Assembly (NCBI GenBank): GCA_038087875.1
Contig: CM075989.1
Span: 23,872,001-23,936,000 of the forward strand
DNA from: Malacoraja senta
Taxonomy: Eukaryota
DNA length: 64,000 nt
Direction of reading: 5' to 3'
The position numbers and the translations under genes are program-made. The notes beneath the pieces are model-generated. The model made no database searches, was not told the DNA's origin, and saw only the letters and a list, made by a program, of their open reading frames with translations. Shown piece by piece: positions 3,710 to 59,174 of the stretch (positions are counted from its first letter, which is position 1; each line of letters begins with the position of its first letter).

Positions 3710-4825
3710 CATAGAAACAAAGAAACAGAAAAATAGGTGCAGGAGTAGGCCATTCGGCCCTTCAAGCCAGCACCGCCATTCAATATGATCATGGTTGATC
3801 ATCTAAAATCAGTACCCCATTCCTGCTTTTTTCACCATTTCCGTTGATTCCGTTAGCCCTAAGAGCTAAATCTAACTCTCCCTTGAAAAGATCCAGTGAA
3901 TTGGCCTCCACTGCCTTCTGTGGCAGAGAATTCCACAGATTCACAACTCTCTGGGTGAAGAGGTTTTTCCTCATCTCAGTCCTAAATGGCCTAACCCTTA
4001 TTCTTAGACTGTGACCCCTGGTTCTGGACACCCCCAACATCGGGAACATTTTTCTTGCATCTAGCCTGTCAGTATCAGTATCAGTATCAGTATTTCTTTA
4101 ATATCATTTCACTGAATACTCGCATACACAGAGGAAACGAAAAAACGTTGCTCAATCGGTTTCCATTCAGTGTAAAAAACAAAAGGATAATACATAGAGC
4201 TTTAAAAACAAATTAAAATTACCATTCTTAAAAAGAAAGTAGGCCTAAAAATTAACAATATAATAAAAACAGTCATTCTGATCGACAGTGGCTTCACAGT
4301 GGCTTTACTTGACAGGTGCCTAACTGTCAAAGTATGGGGCGCGGTTGGATGTGTGGATGAGCGATGTTTTGGGAGGGGACAAAGTCCGTTAATCAGTCTT
4401 ATTGCCTGTGGGAAGAAGCTGAGGAGCATCCTGCTGGTTTTGCAGCTGATGCTCCTGTACCTCTTCCCAGATGGCAGAATGGAAAAGATGTGGTGTGATG
4501 GGTGGTGGGGGTCCTGGATGATGGAGATGGCTCGACTGATGCTCCTCTTCTTGTATATCTCCAGCAGGAAAGGGAGTGGGGCACCGATAATCCTGCTGGC
4601 GGTCTTCACTATCCTGTTTAGTTGATATTGTTCGTAAGCCTTGCAGCTCCCGAACCAGGAAGTGATACCGTAGGTTATTATGCTTTCAATTGTGCCCCTA
4701 TAGAAGGTTCTTAGATGGGCAGTGGGGAGACCATCCTGTCCAATTTTATATGTTTCTATAAGAGTCCCTCTCATCCTTCTAAATTCCAGTGAATACAAGC
4801 CTAGTCGACCCATTCTTTCATCACA
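3710..4825 (-). mobile_element. CR1 3' fragment interrupted by a Rex1/Babar insertion (~4071-4734)
   Basis: CR1 peptide lies on both sides of the insertion (TRGHSLRIR; LGLYSLEFRRMRG). CCTGTC is repeated at 4065-4070 and 4735-4740. Confidence 0.8.
4071..4734 (-). mobile_element. Rex1/Babar LINE 3' fragment
   Basis: FYRGTIESIITYGITSWFGSC...DPHHPSH..LPSGKRYRS peptide; (GATACT)n microsatellite tail. Confidence 0.85.
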
Positions 4826-7800
4826 TCGCTGTGTTAAAAATACACTCCATTTTATGAAATCACGGTGGCTCTTTGACTCACGGTGTCCCTGGCTAACAAA
4901 AACATTGATTTTACTGTACATTCAAAATTAATAGTTGACCTACATCAATGGCTTTTATAGAAAGGCATTTCAACCTATGTCACCTTTACCAATGGAAACA
5001 TTTTCTAATTTCGTATCTGTGAGGCCTCACTCTGATTTTTAGTCACAGGCCCCCAAATAGATTCTTTCTATTGACTTTTAGACGGCCTCAAAATCCCCCC
5101 AAAATCGATCAAATTAACATTGATCTCCACATAATTTGGCGCTGAGTTTGTGGCTATGACTCCGGTCATAGGTCAATGCCGTGACCTCAAGGGTCAAAAT
5201 ATATTTCCTGAGGTCTGGTGCCCTTTATGGTCACTTTATTTTTAAGTTTGGTTAAATCAGCTATCCCAGCACAGCTTAGTTTCGTTTAGTTTCGAGACAC
5301 AGCGTGGAAACAGGCCCTTCAGTCCACCGAGTCCGCGCTGACCAGTGATCAGCCGTACACTAGTTCTAGAGATAATTTACAGAAGCCAAGTAACTTACAA
5401 ACCTGCACGTCTTTGGAATGTCAGAAGAAACCGGAGCACCCAGAGCAAACCCACGCGGTCACAGGGAGAACGTACAAACTCCACACAGACAGCACCCGTA
5501 ATCAGAATCTAACTTGGGTCTTAGACGCTGTATGGCGGCAACTCTACCTCTGTGCCACCCTAAATGATTGATTCATAGGTACATCATGGAAAGAAGCCTT
5601 TTGAGTCTACTCCATGCCGACCATCCATCACCCCTTCACACTAGTTTTATGATGTGCCACTTCTGCATCTACTCCCTACACTCTACAGAGACTGCACGTC
5701 TTTGGAATGTGGGGGGAAACCAGAGCACCAAGAGGAAACCCACGCGGTCACATGGAGAAGGTGCAAACTCTACACAGACAGCAACTGAGGTCTGAACCGA
5801 ACCCGTGTCTCTGGCGCTGTGAGGCAGCAACTCCACCGCTGCGTCACCGTGACACCAGATTTTTAACTTGTAGGTTACATTTAATAATAATCTGCTAGGT
5901 CTGGTGTAGCACTAAATTTAAAATTCATCGCTCACAATCTCCTATGGGATTGATCTCGTGTTTAATGTGAATAAACGGACTCCTCTGAAAGATGCCTTTC
6001 AATCCGTGTGATGATGGGTGGTATAGGCAAGTCATACTGAGATACCTGGCGTTATGAGGCAGCAGCTCTAACACTGCACCATTGTGCCACCCTTATGCCA
6101 GCTGATAATGGAAACTCAGAAGATGTCCTTGAGTCCGTTGGTAACGTTCCAAGAGAGAGTTAGATTTAGCTCTTAGGGCTAAAGGAATCAAGGGATATGG
6201 GGAGAAAGCAGGAACGGGGTACTGGTTGTGGATGATCAGCCATGATCATATTGAATGGCTGTGCTGGCTCGAAGGGCCGAATTGCCTACTCCTATTGCCT
6301 ATGTTTCTGTGAATGTGGATTTCCAGCTAATGCTGAGTGTCCTGAAGTACTCTCACTGCACATGTTCATCTGATTAGCTACCAAATGAAGCAATCTCTTG
6401 TGAAGAAGCAAGTTTCAAGTCCGATTCCAGTGAATTCAAAATTAATATATATTACGAATATATACAGAAAACATATTGAGGCACTGCGACTTGGTTTCAG
6501 TCATAAATGTTTGGAATTAATTCTTTGCAAACTGGATTAAGACGATCAAGTAATGTGCCATTATTTAACAAGCGTTAAGATAAGGATAATGGAAAGCGAA
6601 GAGATCTTTGCTCATACTCTTGCCATGAAATATCCCCTGCAACGAGACTCGAGATAAGAAAAAGTATGAAATGCTCGTGTTTTTAAGCCTAAGGCCACTT
6701 TTCAAATCTTTTCAAAGTCTTTTTGAAGTCTTGCATCCATCCTGCAGCAGCCTTGAGGTATCGCCTCTGGGATCAGAGCCACAAACACTGAGCTTCTGAT
6801 TCATCTGCTGGAGTATAAATCACAAACAAGGCAGCCTGAAATGTCAAAGGTGACTGTGAGTCAGGGAAGCGTTGTGCAAGCCCTGGCATAACATATGTAC
6901 ATTTCTTGCAATAAATTAATAGATAACTTGACAAATCACAAATAACATAGTTTATTTTACATCTGCCATGCTTTTGAGAGGGAATATGGATTTTTTTAAT
7001 TTTTGCAAACCATCTGTTTTATAGGAATGCTATCAATGGCTCATTTCCCTTTATTATACGGCTTGCCTGATATACATATTTTAATCTTTTCAGCTTTTTT
7101 TCCTGCTCATGTATTTTGATGTTTTCCCTATCCCTGTTCCTTGTGTTCCTGGCCCTCCCCCCTCTCCATCCATCACCTGCTGGTCACTGACATCAGGCCT
7201 TATCAGCATCTATATTTTAATAGCTTACAACCCAATGTATGAACATTGAATTCTCCAATTCCAGATATCCCCTCAAAACACACATCCCTTTCTCCCCCAA
7301 ATAACCCCCCCCCCTCTCTTTCCCACTCTTCCCTCCCTTGTTCCCCACCTGGATTCCCACTTATTTCACCCCCCCCCACCCCCCCAGCTAATTTCCTGCC
7401 CCGAGCTTTACAATCCGCAACTCCTCAAAACTCTCTCACACCTTTGTTCCTTTCTTATCTTTGGCCTTTGTTCCAACCAGCTGCCTGCCTGAAGAAGGTT
7501 CTCGACCTGAAACGTCACCCACTCCTTCTCCCCAGAGATGCTGCCTGACCCCCTGAGTTACTCCTGCATTTTTGTGTCTATCTTTGGTTTAAACCAGTAT
7601 CTGCAGTTCCTTCCTGCACATGACTATCAAACCCTCCCCCCCCCCAACCTCGCTTGTCTGCCACTCCCCTTTTCCAGCTTCTCTGTCCCCTCCTCCCCTT
7701 ATATTCAGACTGAAGAAGAGTCGTGACCCGAAACGTCACCCACCCATTTTCTCCACAGATGCTGCCTGACCCGCTGAGTTACTCCAGCACTCTGTGAAAC

Positions 7801-8377: not shown

Positions 8378-9984
8378 CAGTGGCTTGCAAAAGTATTCAT
8401 ACCCCTTGAACTTTTCCACATTTTGTCACGTTACAACCACAAACGTAAATGTATTTTATTGGGATTTTATGTGATAGACCAACACAAAGTGGCGCATAAT
8501 TGTGAAGTGGAAGGAAAATGATTCATGGTTTTCAAATTTTTTTACAAATAAAAAACTGAAAAGTGTCGCATGCAAAAGTATTCAGCCCCCTTTACTCTGA
8601 TACCCCTAAATAAAATCCAGTGCAACCAATTGCCTTCAGAAGTCACCTAATTAGTAAATAGAGTCCACGTGTGTAATCTAATCTCAGTATAAATACAGCT
8701 GTTCTGTGAAGGCCTCAGAGGTTTGTTAGAGAACATTAGTGAACAAACAGCATCATGAACACACCAGACAGGTCAGGGATAAAGTTGTGGAGAAGTTTAA
8801 AGCAGGGTTAGGTTATAAACAAATATCCCAAGCTTTGAACATCTCACGGAGGACTGTTCAATCCATCATCCGAAAATGGAAAGAGTATGGCACAACTGCA
8901 AACCTACCAAGACATGGCCGTCCACCTAAACTCACAGGCCGGGCAAGGAGAGCATTGTTCAGAGAAGCAGTCAAGATGCCCATGGTAACTCTGGAGGAGC
9001 TGCAGAGATCCACAGCTCAGGTGGGAGAATCTGTCCACAGGACAACTATTAGTCGTGCACTCCACAAATCGGGCCTTTATGGAAGAGTGACAAGAAGAAA
9101 GCCATTGTTGAAAAAAAGCCATAAGAAGTCCCGTTTGAAGTTTGCCACAAGCCATGTGGGGGACACAGCAAACATGTGGAGGAAGGTGCTCTGGTCAGAT
9201 GAGACCAAAATTGAAGTTTTTGGCCTAAATGCAAAACGCTATGTGTGGCAGAAACCTAACACTGCACATCACCCTGAACACACCATCCACACTGTGAAAC
9301 ATGGTGGTGGCAGCATCATGCTGTGGGGATACTTTTCTTCAGCAGGGACAGGGAAGCTGGTCAGAGTTGATGGGAAGATGGATGGAGACATATACAGGGC
9401 AATCTTGGAAGAAAACCTGTTAGAGTCTGCAAAAGACTTGAGACTGGGGCGGAGGTTCACCTTCCAGCAGGACAACGACCCTAAACATACAGCCAGAGCT
9501 ACAATGGAATGGTTTAGATCAAAGCATATTCATGTGTTAGAATGGCCCAGTCAAAGTCCAGACCTAAATCCAATTGAGAATCTCTGGCAAGACTTGAAAA
9601 TTGCTGTTCACAGACGCTCTCCATCCAATCTGACTGAACTTGAGCTATTTTGCAAAGAAGAATGGGCAAAAATTTCAGTCTCTAGATGTGCAAAGCTGGT
9701 AGAGACATACCCCAAAAGACTTGCAGCTGTAATTGCAGCGAAAGGTGGTTCTACAAAGTATTGACTCAGGGGGGGGCTGAATACTTTTGCATGTGACACT
9801 TTTCAGTTTTTTATTTGTAACAAAATTTGAAAACCATGTATCATTTTCCTTCCACTTCACAATTATGCACCACTTTGTGTTGGTCTATCACATAAAATCC
9901 CAATAAAATACATTTACGTTTGTGGTTGTAACGTGACAAAATGTGGAAAAGTTCAAGGGGTATGAAAACATTTGCAAGCCACTG
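8378..9984 (+). mobile_element. Full-length Tc1/mariner DNA transposon, DD34E, IR/DR type, Passport (PPTN)-like
   Basis: ~213-bp terminal inverted repeats (8378-8590 and 9772-9984) start CAGTGGCTTGCAAA and contain the internal direct repeat TGCAAAAGTATTCA. TA follows the right end; CA precedes the left end. An internal transposase frame is present. Confidence 0.95.
8755..9764 (+). pseudogene. Tc1 transposase, stop-free over ~335 codons, with the initiator ATG out of frame
   Basis: GRPPK, WSDETK, FQQDNDPKH and SPDLNPIE motifs are present, with 34 residues between the second D and the E. The ATG at 8755 is shifted +1 from the long frame; the ORF track start at 8739 is a GTG. Confidence 0.85.
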
Positions 9985-23200: not shown

Positions 23201-24240
23201 TTCTCTTTCTCTCCCCTTAATTTTTTTGACATTGACATTGTACATAGAATGGTGCTTTTGGCAATATTTTGATTAAAAAAACATGAGTTGATATATCATC
23301 CAAAGATGTTGTAAAGATCGAAGTTACAAGCTTTTGAAGATCATGTCTGAAACATTTGATAAAATAAGTACACCTTTATAATTGAACATCTAAATAATGG
23401 TAGATGCTGGAAATCTGAAATAAACAACAAAAAAAAGGAAAAATATTTTTTTCTAACAACTTTATTATATTATCGACCAATTATCACATGAAAAGCCCAC
23501 AGGTTTTTGGCAGGTCTGTTGATCCTGGCTATCTCAGGGAAAGTATATCTTGTAATGAAAAGCATATTGTTTCAAAAGCACGCAGGAAAATAAAGCATAA
23601 TACAGGTATCAAAAACAGTACGTTTGAATGCAAGAATTGGGAAGTAAATGCAAGAATTGGGAAGTAAATCGAAAAAGAAAGGGAAAAGTTGTCTCTTACC
23701 TGTTGTGGTACACCTGGCCGCCACCTGACATCTTCCTTCAGTCAGAGGAGCTGGCCGCGGAGAGTGCTCTGAGTGAAGTATGATGATTGCCAGTGTTTGT
23801 TCTGCCCTTACCTCACGGTGTTGCAATGTTCTATAAACCTGACCCAGAAACGTTGACATCTGCCAAAACCACGCAGCTGGAATTGAGCAGGAGACGGGGC
23901 ACCAGAGCTGACGCCTTTGTGATTGGAAACGAAGCATGTTAATGGTGCAGTTCGCAGTTCCAGGGCCACGTCCAACTATCGAATTAACATGCTGGCTGGC
24001 ACAGCTGCCTTACAGTGCCAGAGTTCCGGGTTTGATTCTGTCTGTACGGAGTTTGTACGTTCTACCCGTGACCTGCATGGGTTTTCTCCAGGTGCTCCGG
24101 TTTCCTCCCACACTCCAAAGACATACAGGTTTGTAGGTTAATTGGCTGCTGTAAATTGTAAATTGTCCTTTGTATATGGAATAATACGAGGTGATCGCTG
24201 TTTGGCGCGGACTGAATTGGTAGAAGGACTTGTTTAAGGT

Positions 24241-24510
24241 CTATTTTGCCTTTTCTATGGCTATTTTGCATGTTCCTAGGGCTATTTTGCATGTTTCTAG
24301 GGCTATTTTGCATGTTTCTAGGGCTATTTTGCATGTTCCTAGGGCTATTTTGCATATTCCTAGGGCTATTTTGCATGTTTCTAGGGCTATTTTGCATGTT
24401 CCTGGGGCTATTTTGCATATTCCTAGGGCTATTTTGCATGTTTCTAGGGCTATTTTGCATGTTCCTAGGGCTATTTTGCCTTTCTCGTGCTATTTTACCT
24501 GTTTCTAGGT
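24241..24510. repeat. 21-bp minisatellite, about 12-13 units including degenerate flanks
   Basis: Unit GCTATTTTGCATGTTYCTAGG. Confidence 0.95.
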
Positions 24511-25626
24511 TTTGTTTGCATCCGGCAATAAATGATGTTTCACCCAACCAATTGATTGTTGCCTAAACACATGGCATCATGAATTTCCGTCCAGCAAAGA
24601 ACTAACCACAATAACTTGTTGACAGACTATACTTCCAAAGCCAATGGGAGTAACAACGAAGGGCCTTTAGAAATCTATCAAGCTATTGGAAATCGGGATG
24701 GAAGGAATGGATGACACGTTACATAGAGTTGGCAGAAGAAGTTGAAACAGGAGGGAGCAAGAGCTTCATCATTCCTCAGCATGGTGCAACATTCAGACAG
24801 ATATGTACACCTGGGGAACGTTAAGGAGAGGCCTCTGAAGCAGAATAATATGTTGGCTTTTATTTGGCCTTGTGATCAGCCTGTGTACCATCTCAAAGCC
24901 TATTCTCTGATTCCTTACAAACCTGCCTTTGATTTTCAAATGGAAATAACCGGGTTTCTCTATTTAACTATTTCAAGGCAACCATTTGGAGTATTACGTG
25001 CAGGTCTGCTCACTGTCGTTACAGGAAAGGTGTGGAGGCTTTGGAGAGGGGAGGGAAGGGGAGGTTTACCAGAATGCTGCCTGGATTAGAGGGTTTCAGC
25101 TACAGGAGAAGTTGAACTTGGATTGTTCTCTCTGGTACGTCAGAGGTTGATGGAAGGCCTGATAGATGTATATACAATTATGAGAGGCATAGATAGGGTA
25201 GACAGTCAGAACCTTTTTCCCAGGTTGGAAATGTCCAACACTAGGGGGCATAGCTGTAAGATGAGAGGGGGAGAGTTTAACGAAGATGTGCAGGACTATT
25301 TTTTTTCCACAGTGAGTGGTCGGGGACTGAAATGTACTGTCAGGGGGGGTGGTGGAGTCAGATACGATAGTGGTGTTTAAAAGGCTTTTAGATAGGCACA
25401 TGGAATTGCAGGAATGGAGGGATATGGATCATGGGCAGACAAATGAGATCAGTTTAACTTCAACATCATGTTCGGCACGGACATTGTGGGCCACAGGGCC
25501 TCTACTGTTCTATGTTCCATGTTCAAGGATTTTGCTGTATTAAAACTCTCTCTCTTAGTACACACACCAGTGAGCTTGATAGATTTCTAACGGTCCTTCA
25601 CTCTTTTCCCATTCGCTTTGGAAGCA

Positions 25627-26370
25627 TGAATGAATGAATAAGTTTATTGGCCAAGTATTGACATACAAGGAATTTGCCTTGGTGCTCCGCCCACAACTGA
25701 CAACATGACATACAGTGACAGTTAGGAATGTTACATAAAACATTAAACATTAATAATAAAACATTATTGATTAAACATGTGAATTAAATAAAATACCAGA
25801 GCAAAAGGAGGCTACAGATTTTGGTTATTGAGTAGAGCTACTACTCGTGGAAAAAAGCTGTTTTTATGTCTGGCTGTGGCAGCTTTGACAGTCCGGAGTC
25901 GCCTTCCAGAGGGACGTGATTCAAAGAGCTTGTGGCCAGGGTGAGAGGGGTCAGAGATGATCTTGCCCGCTCGCTTCCTGGCCCTTCCCTCCATACAGTT
26001 CGTCAATGGAGGGAAGGTTGCAGCCAATAACCTTCTCAGCTGATCAGACGATTCGCTGCAGCCTCCAGGTGTCGTGCTTGGTGGCTAAGCCAAACCAGAC
26101 CATGATGGAGAAGGTGAGGACAGACTCTAAGATGGTCGTATAGAATTGGACCATCATTGCCTGTTGTAGATTGTGCTTCCTCAGCTGCCACAGGAAGTAC
26201 ATCCTCTGTTGTGCCTTTTTGACTATGGAGTCGATGGTAGCTCCCCACTTAAGGTCCTTGGAGATGATGGTTCCCAGGAACTTAAAAGACTCCACAGATG
26301 TGACTGTGGTGTGTTGATGGTGAGTGGGGTGAGGGGAGGGGGAGCTCTCCTATAGTCTACAATCAATTCC
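25627..26370 (-). mobile_element. Rex1/Babar LINE 3' fragment
   Basis: ESFKFLG...KKAQQRMYFL and SDPSHPGHKLF..PSGRRLR peptides; (TTCA)n tail; AAGCA repeated at 25622-25626 and 26371-26375. Confidence 0.85.
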
Positions 26371-32319: not shown

Positions 32320-35029
32320 CATATATGTAGAGGTTGAAAACACTCCCCCCCCCACCCCAGCCACGGGTACCATGTAATCCCGTGCTACCTGCTCTATGAT
32401 CGGATAGTCGGCGACTAAACCGTCTCCCCCACCTGGTTTGCCAGGTGAGGAGGGGGCTGTGGACCCCCAGCAGGACCAAAAACAAGACCTGTCAAAGGGC
32501 GGATGAGCTCCTAGCGAGCCAACGGCCATCCACACTTCAGTAGAAGTTGTGATCACTGTCGTACATAACATTGCAAGGAATGATGATAAAGCACACACAC
32601 ACACACCAACATCCTATACTTCCAGCGGCGGAAGTCCGCAGGAACTGGAGGACAGAGATGTGTGGTGTGTCCGTCACCGTTCCCGTCGGAAACCAGCACC
32701 ACTGCGTCGCTAATGTTTTCAACGATGATGAATGAATGAATGAATGAAAACTGGTTCATGTGAATTGATTGGCAAATTTTAAATGTCAAGGAACAATTTA
32801 TTGCATCTATTCTTGAATATCAGCAAATAGTCGACAGGAATCTTCAGGACAACCAATAGTTGCTGTGACTCTTGGCTCAGGAAACGGAGCCAGTTGTTAC
32901 GGTATGTTCAGCAACTGTGAAATGAGAAGAACATTCAACAAGTTATCACCAATTTGTCTTCAAATAACCACCTATTTCTTCATGAAGTGAAAGGATTTCT
33001 CGTTACGACATAGTCGAATGATCAATATCATGCCCAAGTGTACGTGTGAATAGACAATAGACAATAGGTGCAGGAGTAGGCCATTCGGCCCTTCGAGCCA
33101 GCACCGCCATTCAACGTGATCATGGCTGATCATCCTCAATCAGTACCCCGTTCCTGCCTTCTCCCCATATCCCCTGACTCCGCTATTTTTAAGAGCCCTA
33201 TCTAGCTCTCTCTTGAAAGCATCCAGAGAACCTGCCTCTGAGGCAGAGAATTCCACAGACATAGTGAATTCTCGCTAACTTGTGAGCAGCAATAGTCCTC
33301 CCTGTGAAGGCTGGGAAAATGCTAATTTAACCTAGCAGTCAGACTCTTTTACAGCGATGGCCCCATAATCTTAATACACATCCGAATGTCCAATGGATAA
33401 ATTTAGCGTATTATAGATAGACAAAAAAATCTCTTGAGCAACTCAGCAGGACAGGCAGCAACTCTGGGTAGAAGGAAAGTGGGTGTCGTTTCGGGTTAAG
33501 ACCCTTCTTCAGACTGAGAGTCCGGGGAGAAGGAAACTGGAGATATGGGTGGGTGCAACAAGAACGTAAGGTGCAGGAAAGTACTGCAGATGCTGGTTTA
33601 AATCAAAGATAGACACAAAATGCTGGAGTAACTCAGCGGGACAGGCAGCAACTCTGGAGAGAAAGAATGAGTGGTGTTTTGGGTCGAGACCCTTCTTCAG
33701 ACTGTAAGGTGTTCCTTTTGTCATCACCCTCTGCAATAGGTCTCAGGCCATCTTAGGGTTGATGTTTTGGTTGAAGCTTACTAACTGCAACCCCTCGTAT
33801 AAACAAGTGTTGGAAACCAGAGGTAGATAAGTCTATTGCTTTTTAATTGAGAGTTGTGGAGCATGGTTTCATGCAAGCCCATTTTCAGGCAGGGTGCAGA
33901 TAGGAAACAAGACACTGTTGGATTTTCTGGCACATCAGATTGAATAAAGGCTTCTGTGAGCTACGGTTGTCAGTATTGACTAACGACCACGGAGCGAGTG
34001 GATGAATGCAGATGATTAAAGTTGCATTAGCAAGAACACAGCTTGATATTTTTACTGAAGCAAATCTCGCAAAACTTAAATGTTGTATATGAATTATTGA
34101 ATTAGTGTATCGACATTTTCATGGCTGGCTTAAACCTGATGCCCAGTTACTGGTGAGGTAAAGACAATATTAAAATGTAAATACTAAAGCTCTGGACCGT
34201 TCTATAGTCTGCTAATATTGTTAACCAGATCTAAATACTAGAGGAAAGCTAGAAATATGAAATAGCATTGGTCCAGAGCTCACTAGTCATTGACAGCGGT
34301 TGAAACAAGCAGTTTGGGGCGGCACGGTGGTGCAGCGGTAGAGTTGCTGCCTCACAGCGCCAGAGACCCGGGTTCGATCCCGACTACGGGTGCTGTCTGT
34401 ACGGAGTTTGTACATTCTCTCTGTGACCATGTGGATTTTCTCCAAGTGGTCCGGTGACCACTTGTGAATTGTCCCTTGTGTGTAGGATAGTACTAGTGTA
34501 CAGGGCGAGCACACATCTGCACGCTCTTGGTGGGCCAAAGGGCCTGTTTCGTGTTGTATCTCTAAAGTCTAAATTCTAAATGGGAATGTCAGTGATCAGC
34601 CATAGAAACTGCATGAAATCTCAGACTTTGTACTCCCAGAATTAGAGATACAGCGCAGAAACAGGCCCTTCGGCCCATCGAGTCCGCACCGACCAGCGAT
34701 CCCCTTACAGTAACACTATCCAACATACACTAGGGACAAGTTACAATTTTATCAAAGCCAATTAACCTGCAAGTCTTTGGAGTGTGGGAGGGAACCGGAG
34801 CACCCGGAGAAAAGCCACTCGGTCACAGGGAGCACGTGCAAACTCCGCCCAGACAGCACCCGTGGTCAGGATCGAACCCGGGTTCTCTGGCGCTGTGAGG
34901 CAGCAACTCTACCGCTGCGCCACCGTGCCGACTGGTTTTTGAAATGAAAGTTGTGGAGTTTAACGTTGCCCTCCCGTAGCTCTGCCAAATTGTGTGTGTT
35001 TTTTTTTCATCACTTCTCACATTTATCTT

Positions 35030-35341
35030 TCAACCCCCGAACCCATACAAGGTTCGCCCCTGGCGTTTCAGTGCGTGCACCACGTCCACAGCTGCCACTG
35101 TCTGGCGTTCCGCATGTTCTGTGTAGGTCACTGAATCTCGGATGACATTCTCAAGGAAAACCTGCAAAACTCCGCGCTCTTCTTTGTAGGTTTGGCCAGA
35201 AATGCGCTTGACCCCAGCTCGTCGAGCCAAACGACGAATGGCAGGTTTGGTGATGCCTTGAAGGTTGTCACAGAGGTCTTTACGGTGCCGCTTTGCGCCA
35301 CCCTCGCCCAGCCCCCTCCCTCCATTCCCTCTCACTGACAT
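35030..35341 (-). CDS. H4: Divergent histone H4-like protein, 103 aa (H4 variant or intact-ORF pseudogene)
   Basis: Uninterrupted ATG-to-TGA ORF that aligns without gaps to canonical H4 ([43 protein letters not shown]). 83 of 102 residues are identical by manual alignment. Confidence 0.9.
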
Positions 35342-36482
35342 GATACCAAATCGCCAGTTGATTTTAAACCAAAGGAAGAAAACGAAAGCGTTGCTTCTGT
35401 CCCAACACTTCTCCCCGTTAAAGGCAAAGTCAAGTGGCTTTTATGACATACTGGGATTAATACAGAAACATAGCGCGCGTCACAGCTAGGTTTTCAAATC
35501 AGTTTGCAAATCAAGCAAAGATTTCAAAGTATCACATGCCCAACAAGAAAATAATGGTAATTTCAATTCAACGGCAGAGTTGCTGCTCACGGATGAAGAA
35601 GAATATGTTTTATACGGCTCACCCTCAGAATACCCCGAGATGAAAGAAAGAAAAGCTTTCATGACCTCGACATGCCCGAAAGCACTTTAGAGCTGAGAAA
35701 TTTAGGGAATACCGTGGCCAATTTGCACACATCTGGGTCCAACAAACAGCAGAAGGACCAAGGCATCAATGTGGGGCTGCAGAGCACTGTGTTTTTACTT
35801 TTGAATTCCAAAGTTTTAATGAATTACGCATGGAAACAACATCATGGAGCAGTCAAGAGTGTTTGTTTTATCCTCATCTGCACCAAGACGCAACAATGGA
35901 ATTACCTGCAGCAACACAACAACTTTGTAAACACAGCCCTCAATAGATAATATAATAAACAGACTAAAATAGAAGTTTAATAAATAAAAAACTCAATACA
36001 ACGCCTGTTCATGTTCTCCGGAGATGCTGCTTGACCCACTGAGTTACTCCAGCACTTTGTGTCTTTTCTTTTTTGCCAAATCACTATATCCATTTGCAGA
36101 TTATTTTCAATGGAGTTTTAGGGTTATTTTACACCTTCCTTCGAATGCACTTGGGAGCTTATTTTAACATCTCACCCAACAGATGACAAGGATGTCTCAT
36201 TATTGTCTTGTTTTATGTTACATTCTATAGTGCGGTGTTTATCCTATGTGTGTGCTGCAGGGTAACTCAAATCCCACTGCACCAATTGGTGTATGGGACA
36301 ATGAATGTAACTTAAACATGAATGTAAGACTATTTTTGTGTTGAAGTCTAGAGGATTGGGGAGCATTGGAATCAAAACTTTTTTAAAATCTCAGGATCCT
36401 GATAAAAAATAATCAACACTCCCAGAACATGTAAAATTTTGAAATGATGCAGTCGTCCTTTGATTCAGAACAGAACAGATTA

Positions 36483-50460: not shown

Positions 50461-52811
50461 TTCACTTGTACCATGTCCATCTTCATATCTCTAGTCTCTC
50501 TCTCCCCTGACTCTCAGTCTGAAGAAGGGTCTCGACCCAAAATGTCACCCATTCCTTCTTTCCTGAGATGCTGCTTGTCCCGCTGAGTTACCCCGGCTAT
50601 CTTTGGACTAAACCAGCATCTGCAGTTCGCCGCAAAATTCAACGTTAAAAATAATTTGTTGTTTTAAGTAACTATTTGTTATAATTTGTGGGGGGGGGGG
50701 GGGGTTCCTTTATTTTTTCCTCGGGCAGCACCTGTAACGTGAATGAGATCTCGACCCCAAAATGTCAACAATTATTTCCCCCCTTACCCCACCTCCCACA
50801 GATGCTGCCCGATCCCTGAGTTTGCCCAGCAGTTTGGAGTTTGTTCCAGATTCCAGCATCAGCAGTCTCTTGTGCATCCAAATATTGATTGAAGCATTAG
50901 TGATAACTCCATTTGAAGTCACGCCATGAAGTGTTTTATATCCATTTTACAGAGAGCACTGTCTCTATTTATTGTCTTTCTGGGAAAATGACACCTTTAA
51001 CAAATAGCCCAGCAGGACTGCTTTGGAAGTCACAAGCATTTATTGTGCTTAGGTCTCTGCTTCAGAAGATATGAGCATGTGCACTAGGATTGTGCATAAC
51101 CAGGATGCCTTGAGTTATCCAGTATATATTTGTCTCTTATGGTGAAAACAGATGCCTGGCCTCAAATTCAAGATGCAGCACGGTGGCGCAGCGGTAGAGT
51201 TGCAGTCTCACAGCGCCAGAGAGCCAGGCTCAATCCAGACCTCAGGTACTGTCTGTGCTGGAGTTTGTACGTTCTCCCCGTGACTGCGTGGGTTTTCTCC
51301 AGGTGCTCCGGTTTCCTCCCACACTCCAAAGACGTGCAGGTCGGTAGGTTAATTGGTTTCTGTAAATTGTAAATTGTCCCAAGTGCGTGGGATAGTGCTA
51401 GTGCACGGGGTAATCACCGGTCAGCGCGGACTCGGTGGGCCGAAGGGCCTGTTTCGGAGGCTGTATCTATCTCTAAGGTCTAAAGTGCCAGAATATTTCT
51501 GTCTTAGTTTCAGATCTCTTTATCATGTAGAGTCTTCTCTTTTAACATGGAGCCGCTACCAGATAGCAACTATTGAAATATTTAAGAGAAGCATCTCTTG
51601 TGTATATAATTTATCGTGTGTTGCCATGTACATACGAGAAGCACCACAGCCCTGGGTCCGAGCACGGATTACATGCTTTGACTAACGAGGTTGACTCAGA
51701 CAAAACAGCAATACCACAAGTTCTCTTCACAAAAGATGGATCAGGATATACGTGTGGGAATTGTGTAAGCTTGTGTTGCCCAAAAAAAGTTTAACTGCAA
51801 ATTGGGCAATTAAAGAGTCCCTTGCAGACGTGGTCATGCACAGCACTGGGGGCTCTGGCAGTGTTTAGAAAACATCTTTGACATTGCCATCACAACTCGT
51901 ACCAGGCAATGGGCATCTGGGACCCTATTGTTAGACTTTCCTCCTCTGATCACTGATGTACATGTTGGTGAGGTACTAAGTTTCACATCTGGGAGATGTG
52001 CCAACTGATCAGAACACAGCTCTTGGCCTTGTTTCCCGGACAGCTAAGCTTCTAATCACAATCAAAGATGGTGAGGAAGTGTCTGTGACATGACTGTGGC
52101 TTTGTTCGACTTGTATATTAGATGGTGATGTGCTATTTGTATATGGTTCAATGATTCAATGGTCCTTTATTGTCACGTGTACCAAGGTACAGTCAAACGC
52201 TTGTTTGTTACATGGTATCATTAAGAATCATTTGATCTTTATTTTTGCTCAGTCTTCTTCTTGTCGAGTCCACGCACAAGATTAGAAGTTATTCAGCCAG
52301 AGCTGAACACACTTCTCGGCATCTGCATACAATGGTGTCTGTCTTGTACTTCTTGTGCTTCTTGTGCTTCTTGTGTGTGGTGGTGGAAAGATTGGTGGAG
52401 ACAGGACCATGACGTGAACACTCTTTCCTTGACCCCATTTGTGCTCAGTGATTTGCCGAGAGTTTCTGTACTGTTTGTGTTCTGTATTCTATCAGAGTGG
52501 ACAGTGTGTGTGATTGTTGGATGGGGGCTTGTGATAAGACCAACAACTAAGACCCATCTCAACTTGTTAATAAAATGCCAAGGAGTCTCCACCTGAACTC
52601 AGTGGAAGAGTTGCCCAATGCAGTTCTCAATCAAATATGTAGACAATGGTTCGATGGGGCTTTATATGTCACATATGCAACTGCACCGTGACATTATTTT
52701 TGCATATATTACACATGTTGGTGCTGCCATTTTTGGCGCCATTATACAAAGTCCAAAGTCCGGTCGGCCCGCTTGCTCGATGTACAGGAGCAGTTCAGAC
52801 AAACCGACGTC

Positions 52812-53128
52812 CCTCTTCTCTCCTCTCCTCTCCTCTCCGCTCCACTCCTCCCCTCCCCTCTCCTCTCCTCTCCTCTCCTCCCCTCTCCTCCCCCTCCTCC
52901 CCCTCCTCCCCTCTCCTCTCCTCTCCTCTCCTCTCCTCTCCTCTCCTCTCCTCTCCTCTCCTCTCCTCTCCTCTCCTCTCCTCCCCTCTCCTCTCCTCTC
53001 CTCTCATCTCCTCCCCTCTCCACCCCTCTCCTCTCCTCTCCTCCCCTCTCCTCTCCTCTCCTCTCCTCTCCTCTCCTCTCCTCTCCTCTCCTCCCCTTTC
53101 CTCTCCTCTCCTCTCCTCTTCTCTCCTC
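52812..53128. repeat. (CTCCT)n polypyrimidine microsatellite
   Basis: Directly visible in the sequence. Confidence 0.95.
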
Positions 53129-54455
53129 GCCCGGCCATCTCTGTGTCCCTCTGCCAGCCCTTGCTCCTTGCATTCAACATTTCTAGCTTCCCCCCAATTA
53201 CACTGTGCAACTAGCCTTTGGGTGGGTTGCCGGTCCCACTGACTGATGAGCCTGCGGACAGATAACTGGTCACGACAACCAACAAGCCTTGGGGCGAGGT
53301 CCTGCTGAACGAGCCTTCCAGATGTCAAGGAGCAGTTTGGAAAATTCTTCAATGCGTCTCATTTGCTTGCATTTATTTATAATTAAAATGGTTTACAGAT
53401 ACGAGAAGTTGTCCAAATCTAGTGATTTGCAGTACATAAATTGGAATGCCTTTTAACAGACTTCATCCCCTTCCAAGTGGAAACTGATTGTAAAGGGGAT
53501 GTCTGGTAATAAAAACTCAAGTGGCAACTAACGAGCTGTACATAACCCTGACCATGTCGGCACACAATGAATGGAACTGTTGATTCTTGGCCCTTGAGTA
53601 TATGTTCCCCTTGAACTTGCAATTTCTTTGAAGAAGTCAACCAAAAAAAATGTTAGCAGTTGTGCCTGAATAAATAAATAGGTACCAGTTCATGGTGCAG
53701 TAATCAACCCTGTATTTTTTGCGTATACATCACACCATTCTATTTTGTGAAAGCGATCAAACATCTAACATTTCATTTCCCTTCTTTCAAATTAAAAAAG
53801 GATGCAGTTTATGAGAAGTTTTGTATCATTTTTTGATACAAATATCTGCAAAGTTATTTATTGAGGTTTGCATTTCAACCTGAATAGCAACTCACGATTA
53901 AACATCAAGTCGGGCTTCAGAAAGCAAACGTCTTGCAATAAGACTTCTCAAGTAAACTTTCAAAGACTTTACGTAAGGTTTCCAACATTCCACTGTCGAC
54001 AAAAGTTGAGATTTTTTGCAGTTTTGAGGCCCACGTCAAACCTGTCAGAGGATTCAAACCGTTCCCTCCGAAGAAAGTTTAAATAAACGAGTCGTCACAG
54101 AACACTACTTGTTATTTCCAACAACTCTATCTGAAATTTGTATTATTTTTCAGCTTCACCTACCGGAACTGTTCAAAGAAACTGAATATTTACTTCTGTT
54201 GTCAGTACAACACTGACCAATCCATTGTATTCTCACTGCGGTAACTATGAAGGCTGAAAAATCTATCCATCTTAACAGCTGTCACAAAATTCCTGGAGGA
54301 ACATATTTGAAGAGGTCACCCCACTGGAATTCTTGTAAATGATGTACTGATTTCAGCTTGTACGAGGGAGTGGTTTGACATTGTAACAATCGTCACTTGG
54401 CACTTGGAAGTTTTTGTATCTTTTTGTGTTCATCATTATAGAACCACTATAATCA

Positions 54456-57400: not shown

Positions 57401-58926
57401 TTATGGGGAGAAGGCAGGAGAATGGGGATAGGAGAGAGAGATCAGCCGTGATTGAATGGCGGAGTAGACTTGATGGGCCAAATGGCCTAATTCTACTCCT
57501 ATCCCTTATGACCTTATGACCTATTAATTCTTTCCGTCCTCAGCTTAAACCAATGACCTCAGGTCCTCCATTCCCCAACTCTGGGCAAGAGACTGCGTCT
57601 ACCGAGTCTATTCCTCTCATGATTTTGTACACCTCTACAAGATCTGTCCGTATGACCTTAAGACTTAGGAAGGAACTGCAGATGCTGGCTTACACCAACG
57701 ATAGGCACAAAATGCTGGAGTAACTCAGCGGGTCAGGCAGCATCTCTGGAGAAAAGGAATAGGTGATGTTTTGGGTCGAGACCCTTCTTTAGACCAACTG
57801 CAGTCTGAAACAGGGTCTCCACCCAAATCGGCACCTAATCCTTTTCTCTAGAGATGTTGCCTGACCCGCTGAGTTACTCCTGCATTTTGTGTCTATCTTT
57901 TGAATGTGTATGCTATGTGTTAATGTGGTACCCTGAATCTTTCAAATGATTGCATTCCAGTACAATGTTTCAGCCGCTTTAGGAGACATTTAAGACATCT
58001 GCCAAACATCTTGGCCAAGAGTGAGGGCTTAACTAGAGTCTTAAAGGAGGGTGAGAGGAGATTTCGGACTGGGATTGAAGGAAGGTGAAGCCGTGTTTGT
58101 CATTGGTGAAGCAATCAAAGTTGTGGAAGTGGATCAATGATACTTTATTGTCTCATGTACCTCAGTGAAATCTTTTGTTTTGCATTAAATACAGTACAAT
58201 CATATTATACAAGTACAAAAGTGCAACAGAGTAGTGTAAGATTAGCAGACTTCATTGAGGCAGATCACAAACCTAGCAGGCCATACACTGTATACATGCA
58301 TCAAACGGAATGACATTTAGAGTCTTATCCCCAAAACTATCTCCATTTCAGCAGTGGCGAACACAATGGGACAGACCACATGTCATTCTGCAACAGAAGA
58401 TAGACACAAAGTGCTGGAGTAACTCAGCGGGCTATGCAGAAACATCCTGACCTGAAACGTCACCAATCCATGTTCTCCAGGGATGCTGCCTGACCCGTTG
58501 AGTTACTCCAACACTTAATGTCTCCGTTTTATTACTGTGTTGCCCCTTTACATATGCACGTTCTTCTTTGTTTCCTGCTGAACCTCCTTGAGCTAAAAGG
58601 CTTGTGTATTCATTGGCAAGTTGGAGGTAATTTTAACCAAACTGGGTGGGTGAGAAACCCACAGACTTTGTAACACCCCACCCAATGACGACTCTTTGCT
58701 GACCTCAATGGAGAGGAGAAAGGTGGGCAGTGAAACGTGTTTTGTTTGCAGAATCATTTGTTTCCTCACTGGAATGTTGGCAAAGCGATGGATTAATTTA
58801 GAATTCTCTTCTCTTTTAGAACTGGGCTTGTATTATTTTTGTGTGTGTGGGGGGTAAAGTTCTTGCACAGTACTTGAGTGAATTTTATCTAAAACTTGAT
58901 TGCTAAAGGACGATTTGTGTGTGTTC

Positions 58927-59089
<163 letters not shown>

Positions 59090-59174
59090 TATGGAAATGC
59101 ACGGCATTAATGGGCTGACATGCCATTGTTCAATACACAATGTCTGATAGCTAATCATAATCATTTTTTAAAAC

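What the first reader, a model, noticed from the sequence alone, without database searches (positions are those of the whole stretch)
35030..35341. Solitary, intact, lysine-depleted histone H4: candidate new H4 variant
Seen: a full-length, gap-free H4 ORF with 19 substitutions (G2V, K5N, K8R, K12E, V21D, R23C, I26L, G41A, L49Q, I50T, E52K, T54E, K59Q, A69S, K77E, K79Q, T82A, M84V, Y88H). Six of 11 lysines are lost, including tail sites K5, K8 and K12, mostly to neutral or acidic residues. The K16-K20 basic patch and the C-terminal 14 residues are untouched. About 19 CpGs are retained in 312 bp. I see no other histone gene in 64 kb and no GGCYCTTTTCAGRGCC stem-loop downstream; instead GATAAA and an A9 run lie within ~30 nt of the stop. 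Known: H4 is nearly invariant, few vertebrate variants exist (e.g. hominid H4G), and K5/K12 are HAT1 deposition marks. Inference: this could be a replication-independent variant that mimics acetylation or loosens nucleosomes (e.g. in germline). A decaying retrocopy remains a real alternative.
Basis: partly seen in the sequence, partly recalled or inferred. Interest (0 to 1): 0.72.

Follow-up and report, generated by a model that had tools for sequence, protein, structure and literature searches.

The report
Skate-specific lysine-poor histone H4 variant
Skates carry a lone, much-altered copy of the normally near-invariant DNA-packing protein histone H4, kept intact across several species and probably making looser chromatin, but whether and where it is expressed has not been shown.

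Summary
In detail: an intact 103-codon H4 on the minus strand (35341-35030), all 19 substitutions, 19 CpGs, no stem-loop, no other histone in 64 kb. It is not a one-genome accident. Five full-length relatives exist (RefSeq 'histone H4-like' of Leucoraja erinacea and Amblyraja radiata, three unnamed Logan proteins); 17 sites are non-canonical in all six. DNA from four more organisms covers the same locus with the same derived residues; 8 of 8 indels fall outside the ORF. Among orthologues, core changes are conservative and recur at the same few sites, the tail changes fastest, and net charge falls from +18 to +9..+11; five of six lack K5, K8, K12 and K16 altogether. Against: overall amino-acid divergence is about as fast as the flank, no full dN/dS was possible, and expression is untested. 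The A9 run looks like a remnant of the canonical 3' UTR, not a retro poly(A) tail. Best reading: an undescribed skate-restricted replacement H4 that loosens nucleosomes and escapes tail acetylation, probably germline (protein-coding and selected about 0.8; whole mechanism 0.6).

The parts
35030..35341 (-). Intact single-exon ORF for a 103-codon divergent histone H4 (P0001), 19 substitutions against human H4
   Evidence: orthologues; same locus in runs X3, X9, X19, X22
35279..35341 (-). N-terminal tail codons (residues 1-20): G2V breaks the SGRG start, K5N, K8R, K12E; fastest-changing part among orthologues
   Evidence: 10 of 21 minimum changes among six proteins fall in these 20 residues, p 0.003-0.004
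35033..35278 (-). Residues 21-102, mostly histone fold: 64 of 82 sites canonical in all six proteins; 13 sites changed in all six, among them V21D/E, R23C, T54E, K59Q, K77E/D, K79Q, T82A, Y88H
   Evidence: invariant columns
34985..35029 (-). 3' flank: GATAAA (35027-35022) and A9 (35007-34999), probably the worn 3' UTR of a canonical H4 with the stem-loop decayed in place
   Evidence: paralogue contigs keep aligning to 35015-35022 and their loose ends show an A-rich linker and then the stem-loop (tables 7, 8, compared by eye); no hairpin now
35342..35720 (-). Unique 5' flank (putative promoter and 5' UTR), orthologous in four other organisms at about 4-6% divergence; start site unknown
   Evidence: table 8 records 5, 16, 23, 30
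34640..34940 (-). Repeated element (SINE-like) that begins about 90 nt after the stop and bounds the unique region
   Evidence: self-BLAST unique segment 34941-35989; 16 copies of a like element in the window; the name SINE is from my recall

Best explanation
A canonical H4 gene was copied out of a histone cluster in an ancestor of these skates, lost its 3' stem-loop and became a lone, protein-coding replacement variant. SHOWN: intact ORF, orthologues, shared derived residues, lost stem-loop, charge drop from +18 to +9..+11. INFERRED: it still pairs with H3 and enters nucleosomes, because helix 1, R45, H75, K91, G94, Y98 and the C-terminal strand are kept; the nucleosomes are looser, because K77E/D, K79Q and K59Q remove core charge and V21D/E, R23C and K12E spoil the tail surface that docks on the neighbouring acidic patch; and they are blind to tail acetylation, because K5, K8, K12 (and K16 in five of six proteins) are gone while K20, K31, K44 and K91 stay. 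So it is a built-in, enzyme-independent open or easily evicted state rather than a plain acetyl mimic. Most likely site of use: germ cells (by analogy with other young, fast-evolving variants; about 0.55 if functional). Odds by step: selected protein-coding gene about 0.8; destabilising if incorporated about 0.8.
For: Five full-length relatives, two of them RefSeq skate proteins; 17 sites non-canonical in all six, one clade at 100/99 support. Orthologous contigs with flanks in 4 of 4 runs laid; 8 of 8 indels outside the ORF (p 0.04, or 0.10-0.14 after dropping 2-3 doubtful events). Core changes among orthologues are conservative (mean BLOSUM62 +1.0 against -0.43 neutral, p 0.002) and 6 of 11 fall on the 13 of 82 core sites already changed (p 0.004). 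Tail 10 against core 11 changes (p 0.003-0.004). 1 of 13 CGN arginine codons lost against 3.6-5.7 expected from CpG decay measured on 16 repeat copies (p 0.09-0.006). Chance that both RefSeq orthologues stay intact if neutral 0.01-0.07. All 10 residues hit in a human dominant H4 syndrome (PMC9069069) are invariant (about 0.07 by chance, worked by hand). H4 K77E lowers nucleosome stability and breaks telomeric silencing in yeast (PMC7515725 section 28). H4 residues 16-25 contact the acidic patch, and testis H4t of Oikopleura changes V21 and A69 too (PMC3156773). Mammalian lineage-specific H2B variants are fast-evolving and germline (PMC8857922).
Against: Overall rate is not clearly below neutral: amino-acid differences are 4.7-7.8% of nonsynonymous sites to the two RefSeq orthologues (core alone 4.2-5.4%), about the 4-6% seen in the 5' flank against other organisms. 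In organism G the ORF-plus-3'-flank contig is twice as divergent as the 5' flank (28/297 against 16/335, p 0.03). Visible orthologue changes are 6 synonymous and 6 nonsynonymous, not significant (p 0.08-0.14), and 98 difference rows were hidden, so stops in organisms B, C, F, G are not excluded. The 19 changes against canonical H4 are not significantly conservative (p 0.11); V21D, R23C, G2V, L49Q/P are radical. The pattern tests overlap and were chosen after seeing the data; protein databases only show intact copies. A model predicts that neutralising K77 lowers DNA access and that K5, K12, K59 matter little (PMC5856334). No AATAAA lies within 2 kb downstream.
Confidence: 0.6

Rival explanations
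1. An old H4 pseudogene (orphon) that survives intact by luck in slowly evolving skate genomes.
For: Amino-acid divergence about equal to flank divergence; faster change in organism G; radical substitutions; lost stem-loop; no conserved TATA box; skates hold other worn H4 copies, such as P0095.
Against: Changes cluster in the tail, are conservative in the core and recur at the same sites; arginine CpG codons are kept; indels avoid the ORF; both RefSeq orthologues are intact.
Confidence: 0.18
2. A functional gene whose product works like H4G: it binds H3 and chaperones but forms no stable nucleosome, acting as a disruptor or storage histone.
For: Changes at 77-88 lie in the helix 2/helix 3 region that meets H2B; H4G, with changes in these helices, binds H3 but forms no nucleosome (PMC6895281). 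Net charge is halved.
Against: Unlike H4G it keeps the full C-terminal strand and every residue of the human disease clusters; Y88H, A69S and M84L occur in other H4 proteins fetched here (22 of 122, 46 of 123, 34 of 123; a set biased toward the query).
Confidence: 0.12
3. A transcribed passenger: weakly expressed and purged only of dominant-toxic missense changes, with no benefit of its own.
For: Human H4 missense changes act dominantly while loss of one gene is tolerated (PMC9069069), so toxicity alone could protect key residues; overall rate near the flank rate.
Against: Stops and frameshifts would be harmless and should have accumulated (chance intact 0.01-0.07); lysines are lost step by step (organism G appears to keep K79; the five relatives add K16R), which looks directional.
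Confidence: 0.1

Closest known systems
Human H4.7 / H4G (H4C7)
   Same: Vertebrate lineage-restricted H4 paralogue about 81-85% identical to canonical H4, changes through tail and helices, linked to looser chromatin (PMC6895281, PMC8015243, passages read).
   Different: H4G lies inside histone cluster 1, lacks five C-terminal residues, is hominid-only and more hydrophobic; this one is full length, alone in 64 kb, found only in skates, and more acidic.
Oikopleura dioica testis H4t
   Same: Chordate H4 variant changing V21 and A69S; testis-specific, found in sperm (PMC3156773, passages read).
   Different: Three conservative changes and a male-specific cluster, against 19-26 changes with wholesale lysine loss and a lone gene; no sign of orthology.
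Mammalian germline H2B and short H2A variants (H2B.L, H2B.W, H2B.K, H2B.N)
   Same: Lineage-specific, fast-evolving under overall purifying selection, occasional loss (PMC8857922, abstract and passages).
   Different: Other histone class; their selection and germline expression are measured, here neither is.
H4.V of trypanosomes and rice, H4E of ascomycetes
   Same: H4 paralogues kept beside canonical H4; the T. cruzi gene is single-copy and outside the arrays (PMC13052989, search listing; PMC10878826, passages; PMC7617672, search listing).
   Different: Not animal; H4E differs mainly in terminal extensions; independent origins.
Engineered H4 K59Q, K77Q, K79Q and K77E mutants
   Same: The three best PDB matches are K59Q, K79Q and K77Q H4 chains (3AZK, 3AZM, 3AZL); K77E destabilises nucleosomes (PMC7515725).
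   Different: Single laboratory changes; this natural protein combines them with a rewritten tail.

Membership tests
Histone H4 | Full-length H4 sequence and histone fold | tested here: met
   phmmer E 3e-50 over residues 1-103 to canonical H4; 84 of 103 identical; Pfam histone-fold hits. The AlphaFold model from a 7-row alignment was low confidence (pLDDT 47) and adds nothing.
Replication-dependent (canonical) histone genes | 3' stem-loop | tested here: not met
   canonical skate paralogues do show it (table 7)
Replication-dependent (canonical) histone genes | Clustered with other histone genes | tested here: not met
   none within 29 kb on one side and 35 kb on the other; beyond the window unknown
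Replication-dependent (canonical) histone genes | Canonical protein sequence | tested here: not met
   19 substitutions
Replication-independent histone variants | Lone gene without stem-loop | tested here: met
   within the 64 kb window
Replication-independent histone variants | Orthologues retained with shared diagnostic residues | tested here: met
Replication-independent histone variants | Purifying selection on the protein | tested here: inconclusive
   pattern tests reject uniform neutral change; overall rate is near the flank rate and no full dN/dS could be computed
Replication-independent histone variants | Polyadenylated transcript made outside S phase | not testable with these tools
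   no RNA run could be laid
Replication-independent histone variants | Incorporated into nucleosomes | not testable with these tools
   needs reconstitution or chromatin mass spectrometry
Germline-specific histone variants | Testis- or oocyte-restricted expression | not testable with these tools
   analogy only (PMC8857922, PMC3156773)
H4.7 / H4G | C-terminal truncation, cluster location, hominid range | tested here: not met
   full C-terminus, lone gene, skate orthologues; features from PMC6895281
Processed pseudogene / retrocopy | Poly(A) tail and target-site duplication | tested here: not met
   no flanking direct repeat; A9 lines up by eye with the A-rich linker of canonical 3' UTRs
Processed pseudogene / retrocopy | Stops or frameshifts | tested here: not met
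   0 in six full-length proteins; 0 of 8 indels in the ORF; hidden rows could hold stops in four organisms

The most novel reading that the evidence does not exclude
Skates evolved the first full-length H4 replacement variant known from a vertebrate outside hominids: a germline histone whose tail has lost every acetylatable lysine under positive selection and whose core carries built-in acidic residues, giving acetylation-independent nucleosome loosening during sperm or egg chromatin remodelling.
Probability: 0.35. Interest if true: 0.85.

Novelty: new variant of a known kind. Interest (0 to 1): 0.7.

Why it matters
H4 is the most conserved histone; reviews read here list H4.7/H4G as the only human variant and call H4 variants infrequent (PMC11742582, PMC8015243). 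A full-length H4 with 19-26 changes, half the net charge and, in most species, no K5/K8/K12/K16, kept across skates, would be a natural test of which H4 residues a vertebrate nucleosome can do without and of whether H4 tail acetylation can be replaced by fixed sequence. Little skate is a laboratory model with a chromosome-scale genome, so expression and reconstitution tests are within reach.

Tried and rejected
No whole genome is held for this window, so synteny beyond the flanks and copy number were not tested. Sequencing-run search: no RNA holder listed; this says nothing on expression. The Logan proteins lie on contigs of 959-1054 nt, close to the 1049-nt unique stretch between repeats here, so I do not count them as transcripts. 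Orthologues outside skates: in three protein searches (best 120 listed each of 6065, 6673 and 484 hits) and the representative search (best 150) no other variant-like protein outscored ordinary H4; a diverged shark or ray orthologue could rank below the listed rows, and lengths outside 56-181 aa were not searched. Host gene: no convincing exon in 391 reading frames; frames under 40 aa and repeat-covered ones were not scanned. TATA-like words at 35614-35609 and 35445-35438 are changed in other organisms, so neither is accepted as the promoter. AlphaFold model uninformative; no fold search or complex prediction run, since an H3-H4 pair would pass by likeness to solved structures. No tRNA genes. 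Gene conversion as the cause of organism G's canonical-like codons 79 and 84 was rejected because neighbouring codons 77 and 82 stay variant. Earlier scan notes: four unrelated algal histone notes by sequence, none by words or place.

Full report
Observation. The stretch 35030-35341 holds an intact H4 reading frame on the minus strand. It has 19 CpGs (observed/expected 0.79; window 0.49). No other histone is in the window: tblastn finds only this ORF and 1 of 391 unique-region frames scanned against Pfam had a histone fold. There is no histone stem-loop by Rfam, pattern search or folding. No whole genome is held.

It has orthologues. The first protein search returned one protein aligned over its whole length and scoring above ordinary single H4s: 'histone H4-like' of Leucoraja erinacea, 84% identical. 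Its cluster has 5 members: XP_055516988.1 (Leucoraja), XP_032906001.1 (Amblyraja radiata, Rajidae) and three unnamed Logan proteins; the window's own protein is not in the collection. All are 103 aa without gaps. Seventeen sites are non-canonical in all six: 2, 5, 8, 12, 21, 23, 26, 49, 50, 52, 54, 59, 77, 79, 82, 84, 88, and the six form one clade at 100/99 support against canonical H4 and a worn Rhinoraja H4. The window's protein differs from them by 10-16 residues, so these are different species or old lineages; three of the five are within 1-2 residues of each other and may be one species. No further variant-like protein appeared among the listed rows. The window is therefore from a skate or a close relative (inference); I did not determine the species.

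Same locus in more organisms. The run search listed 24 runs: 2 of organism A hold the stretch, 21 of organisms B-H hold 5-11% of its words, 1 holds none. I laid 4 of them, one each of B, C, F and G. Each gave contigs that run into the unique flank: B 35222-35720, C 35222-35720 (plus an ORF piece 35134-35243), F 35134-35720, G 34945-35243 and 35386-35720. By depth these orthologue contigs keep D21, C23 and L26 (B, C, F), T50 and Q59 (C, F, G) and the first bases of the codons for acid 77 and A82 (G), while many other contigs, which I read as canonical paralogues, show the canonical bases. K52 and A41 are private to the window's lineage among these; B and C have proline at 1; G has an A at the first base of codons 79 and 84, so it may keep K79 and M84. 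All 8 listed indels are outside the ORF. Only 40 difference rows were shown and 98 were hidden, so a full dN/dS was impossible and stops in these four are not excluded.

Selected or decaying? For selection: among the six proteins 10 of 21 minimum changes fall in the 20 tail residues (p 0.003-0.004); the 11 core changes average BLOSUM62 +1.0 against -0.43 for neutral single-base changes (p 0.002); 6 of these 11 hit the 13 of 82 core sites already changed in all six (p 0.004). One of 13 CGN arginine codons was lost where CpG decay, calibrated on 16 repeat copies in the window, predicts 3.6-5.7 (p 0.09-0.006). The 16 derived residues of the two RefSeq orthologues (15 if Q52 is ancestral) imply a neutral chance of 0.01-0.07 that both stay intact; indel placement gives p 0.04-0.14. 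The ten residues mutated in a dominant human H4 syndrome (K31, P32, R35, L37, R40, R45, H75, K91, G94, Y98; PMC9069069, passages) are all invariant (about 0.07 by chance, by hand). Against selection: amino-acid differences are 4.7-7.8% of nonsynonymous sites to the RefSeq orthologues, core alone 4.2-5.4%, close to the 4-6% of the flank-dominated contigs, and G's ORF-bearing contig is more divergent than its 5' flank (p 0.03). The flank may itself be constrained, and the comparisons use different species. The visible orthologue changes are 6 synonymous to 6 nonsynonymous (p 0.08-0.14), and the 19 changes against canonical H4 are not significantly conservative (p 0.11). The tests overlap and are post hoc. 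I put the chance of a selected protein-coding gene at about 0.8: fast, but not at random. For scale, two skate genera are dated 33.9 million years apart (PMC12361510, passage); the 17 shared changes predate the split of the species seen here.

Origin. Paralogue contigs keep aligning for about 10 nt past the stop and 13-20 nt before the ATG, and their loose ends show an A-rich linker followed by the stem-loop (tables 7, 8). By eye the window's +11 to +31 resembles that linker, with A9 in its place and the hairpin worn away behind it. No target-site duplication was found. So GATAAA and A9 are more likely inherited 3' UTR than a new poly(A) signal and a retro tail. Whether the copy moved as DNA or RNA is open. 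No AATAAA lies within 2 kb downstream, so the 3' end of any transcript is unknown.

Mechanism (inferred). Net charge drops from +18 to +9..+11; residues 1-24 fall from +8 to +2..+4 and the rest from +10 to +7; only K20, K31, K44 and K91 are kept in all six, and five of six have no K5, K8, K12 or K16. H4 K77E lowers nucleosome stability in vitro and in yeast and abolishes telomeric silencing, whereas K77Q and K77R do little (PMC7515725, section 28 read). H4 residues 16-25 contact the acidic patch (PMC3156773, passages); V21D/E and R23C should weaken this. G2V breaks the SGRG motif of NAA40 substrates (PMC12265263, abstract). K59Q, K77E/D, K79Q, T54E and V21D/E were seen in 0 of up to 123 other H4 sequences fetched, while A69S, M84L and Y88H were common (a biased set). 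That the kept helix 1 and C-terminal strand serve H3 pairing and chaperone binding is partly from PMC9069069 and partly recalled. The acetyl-mimic reading is weaker: K8R and K16R mimic the unacetylated state, and an electrostatic model predicts weak effects for K5, K12 and K59 acetylation and less access for K77 acetylation (PMC5856334, passages). Germline use rests on analogy with mammalian H2B variants (PMC8857922, abstract and passages) and Oikopleura H4t; nothing here measures expression.

Comparison and novelty. It is an H4, not a canonical replication-dependent gene, not H4G (PMC6895281, passages) and meets the testable marks of a replication-independent variant, with selection only partly shown. 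Reviews name H4.7/H4G as the only human variant and H4 variants as few (PMC11742582, PMC8015243, PMC3380720, PMC10878826; passages). Six searches listed no paper on a skate or other cartilaginous-fish H4 variant; I read listings, not all hits. The little skate genome paper mentions 'histone' twice, neither about this gene (PMC10115646, passages). The library lacks most subscription journals and I opened no supplements, where gene or expression tables may list it. RefSeq has annotated two orthologues automatically as 'histone H4-like'. Verdict: a new variant of a known kind, interest 0.7, held below 0.8 because expression and codon-level selection are unshown.

Noticed in passing
window 8730-9764 (+): Uninterrupted 344-codon Tc1/mariner transposase frame with Sleeping Beauty-type HTH and DDE_3 Pfam hits; possibly a young, intact element.
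   Followed up: no
P0095 (XP_078284216.1, Rhinoraja longicauda): A different worn H4 (G14E, R23C, I26F, M84V, no normal start) annotated with a long N-terminal extension; it groups with canonical H4, not with the variant. Its contig (24.7 Mb) is of similar size to those of the Leucoraja and Amblyraja orthologues (24.0 and 26.8 Mb).
   Followed up: partly
window 35338 and 35104 in runs X3, X9, X22: Organisms B and C start the protein with proline instead of serine; organism G may keep K79 and M84, suggesting stepwise lysine loss after the skates split.
   Followed up: partly
window 35345-35367 in run X19: Organism F lacks 23 nt just before the ATG, yet its ORF part shows no indel.
   Followed up: no
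window 26047-26349 (-), 4202-4921 (-): Reading frames that look like retroelement remnants; the first hits Pfam ALKBH8_N. The retroelement label is my recall.
   Followed up: no
window 24062-24560, 52618-53242, 58833-59164: Simple tandem repeats that give spurious long ORFs.
   Followed up: no
whole window: About 46% of the window is repeated within itself and no host-gene exon was recognised: a gene desert or a long intron.
   Followed up: partly
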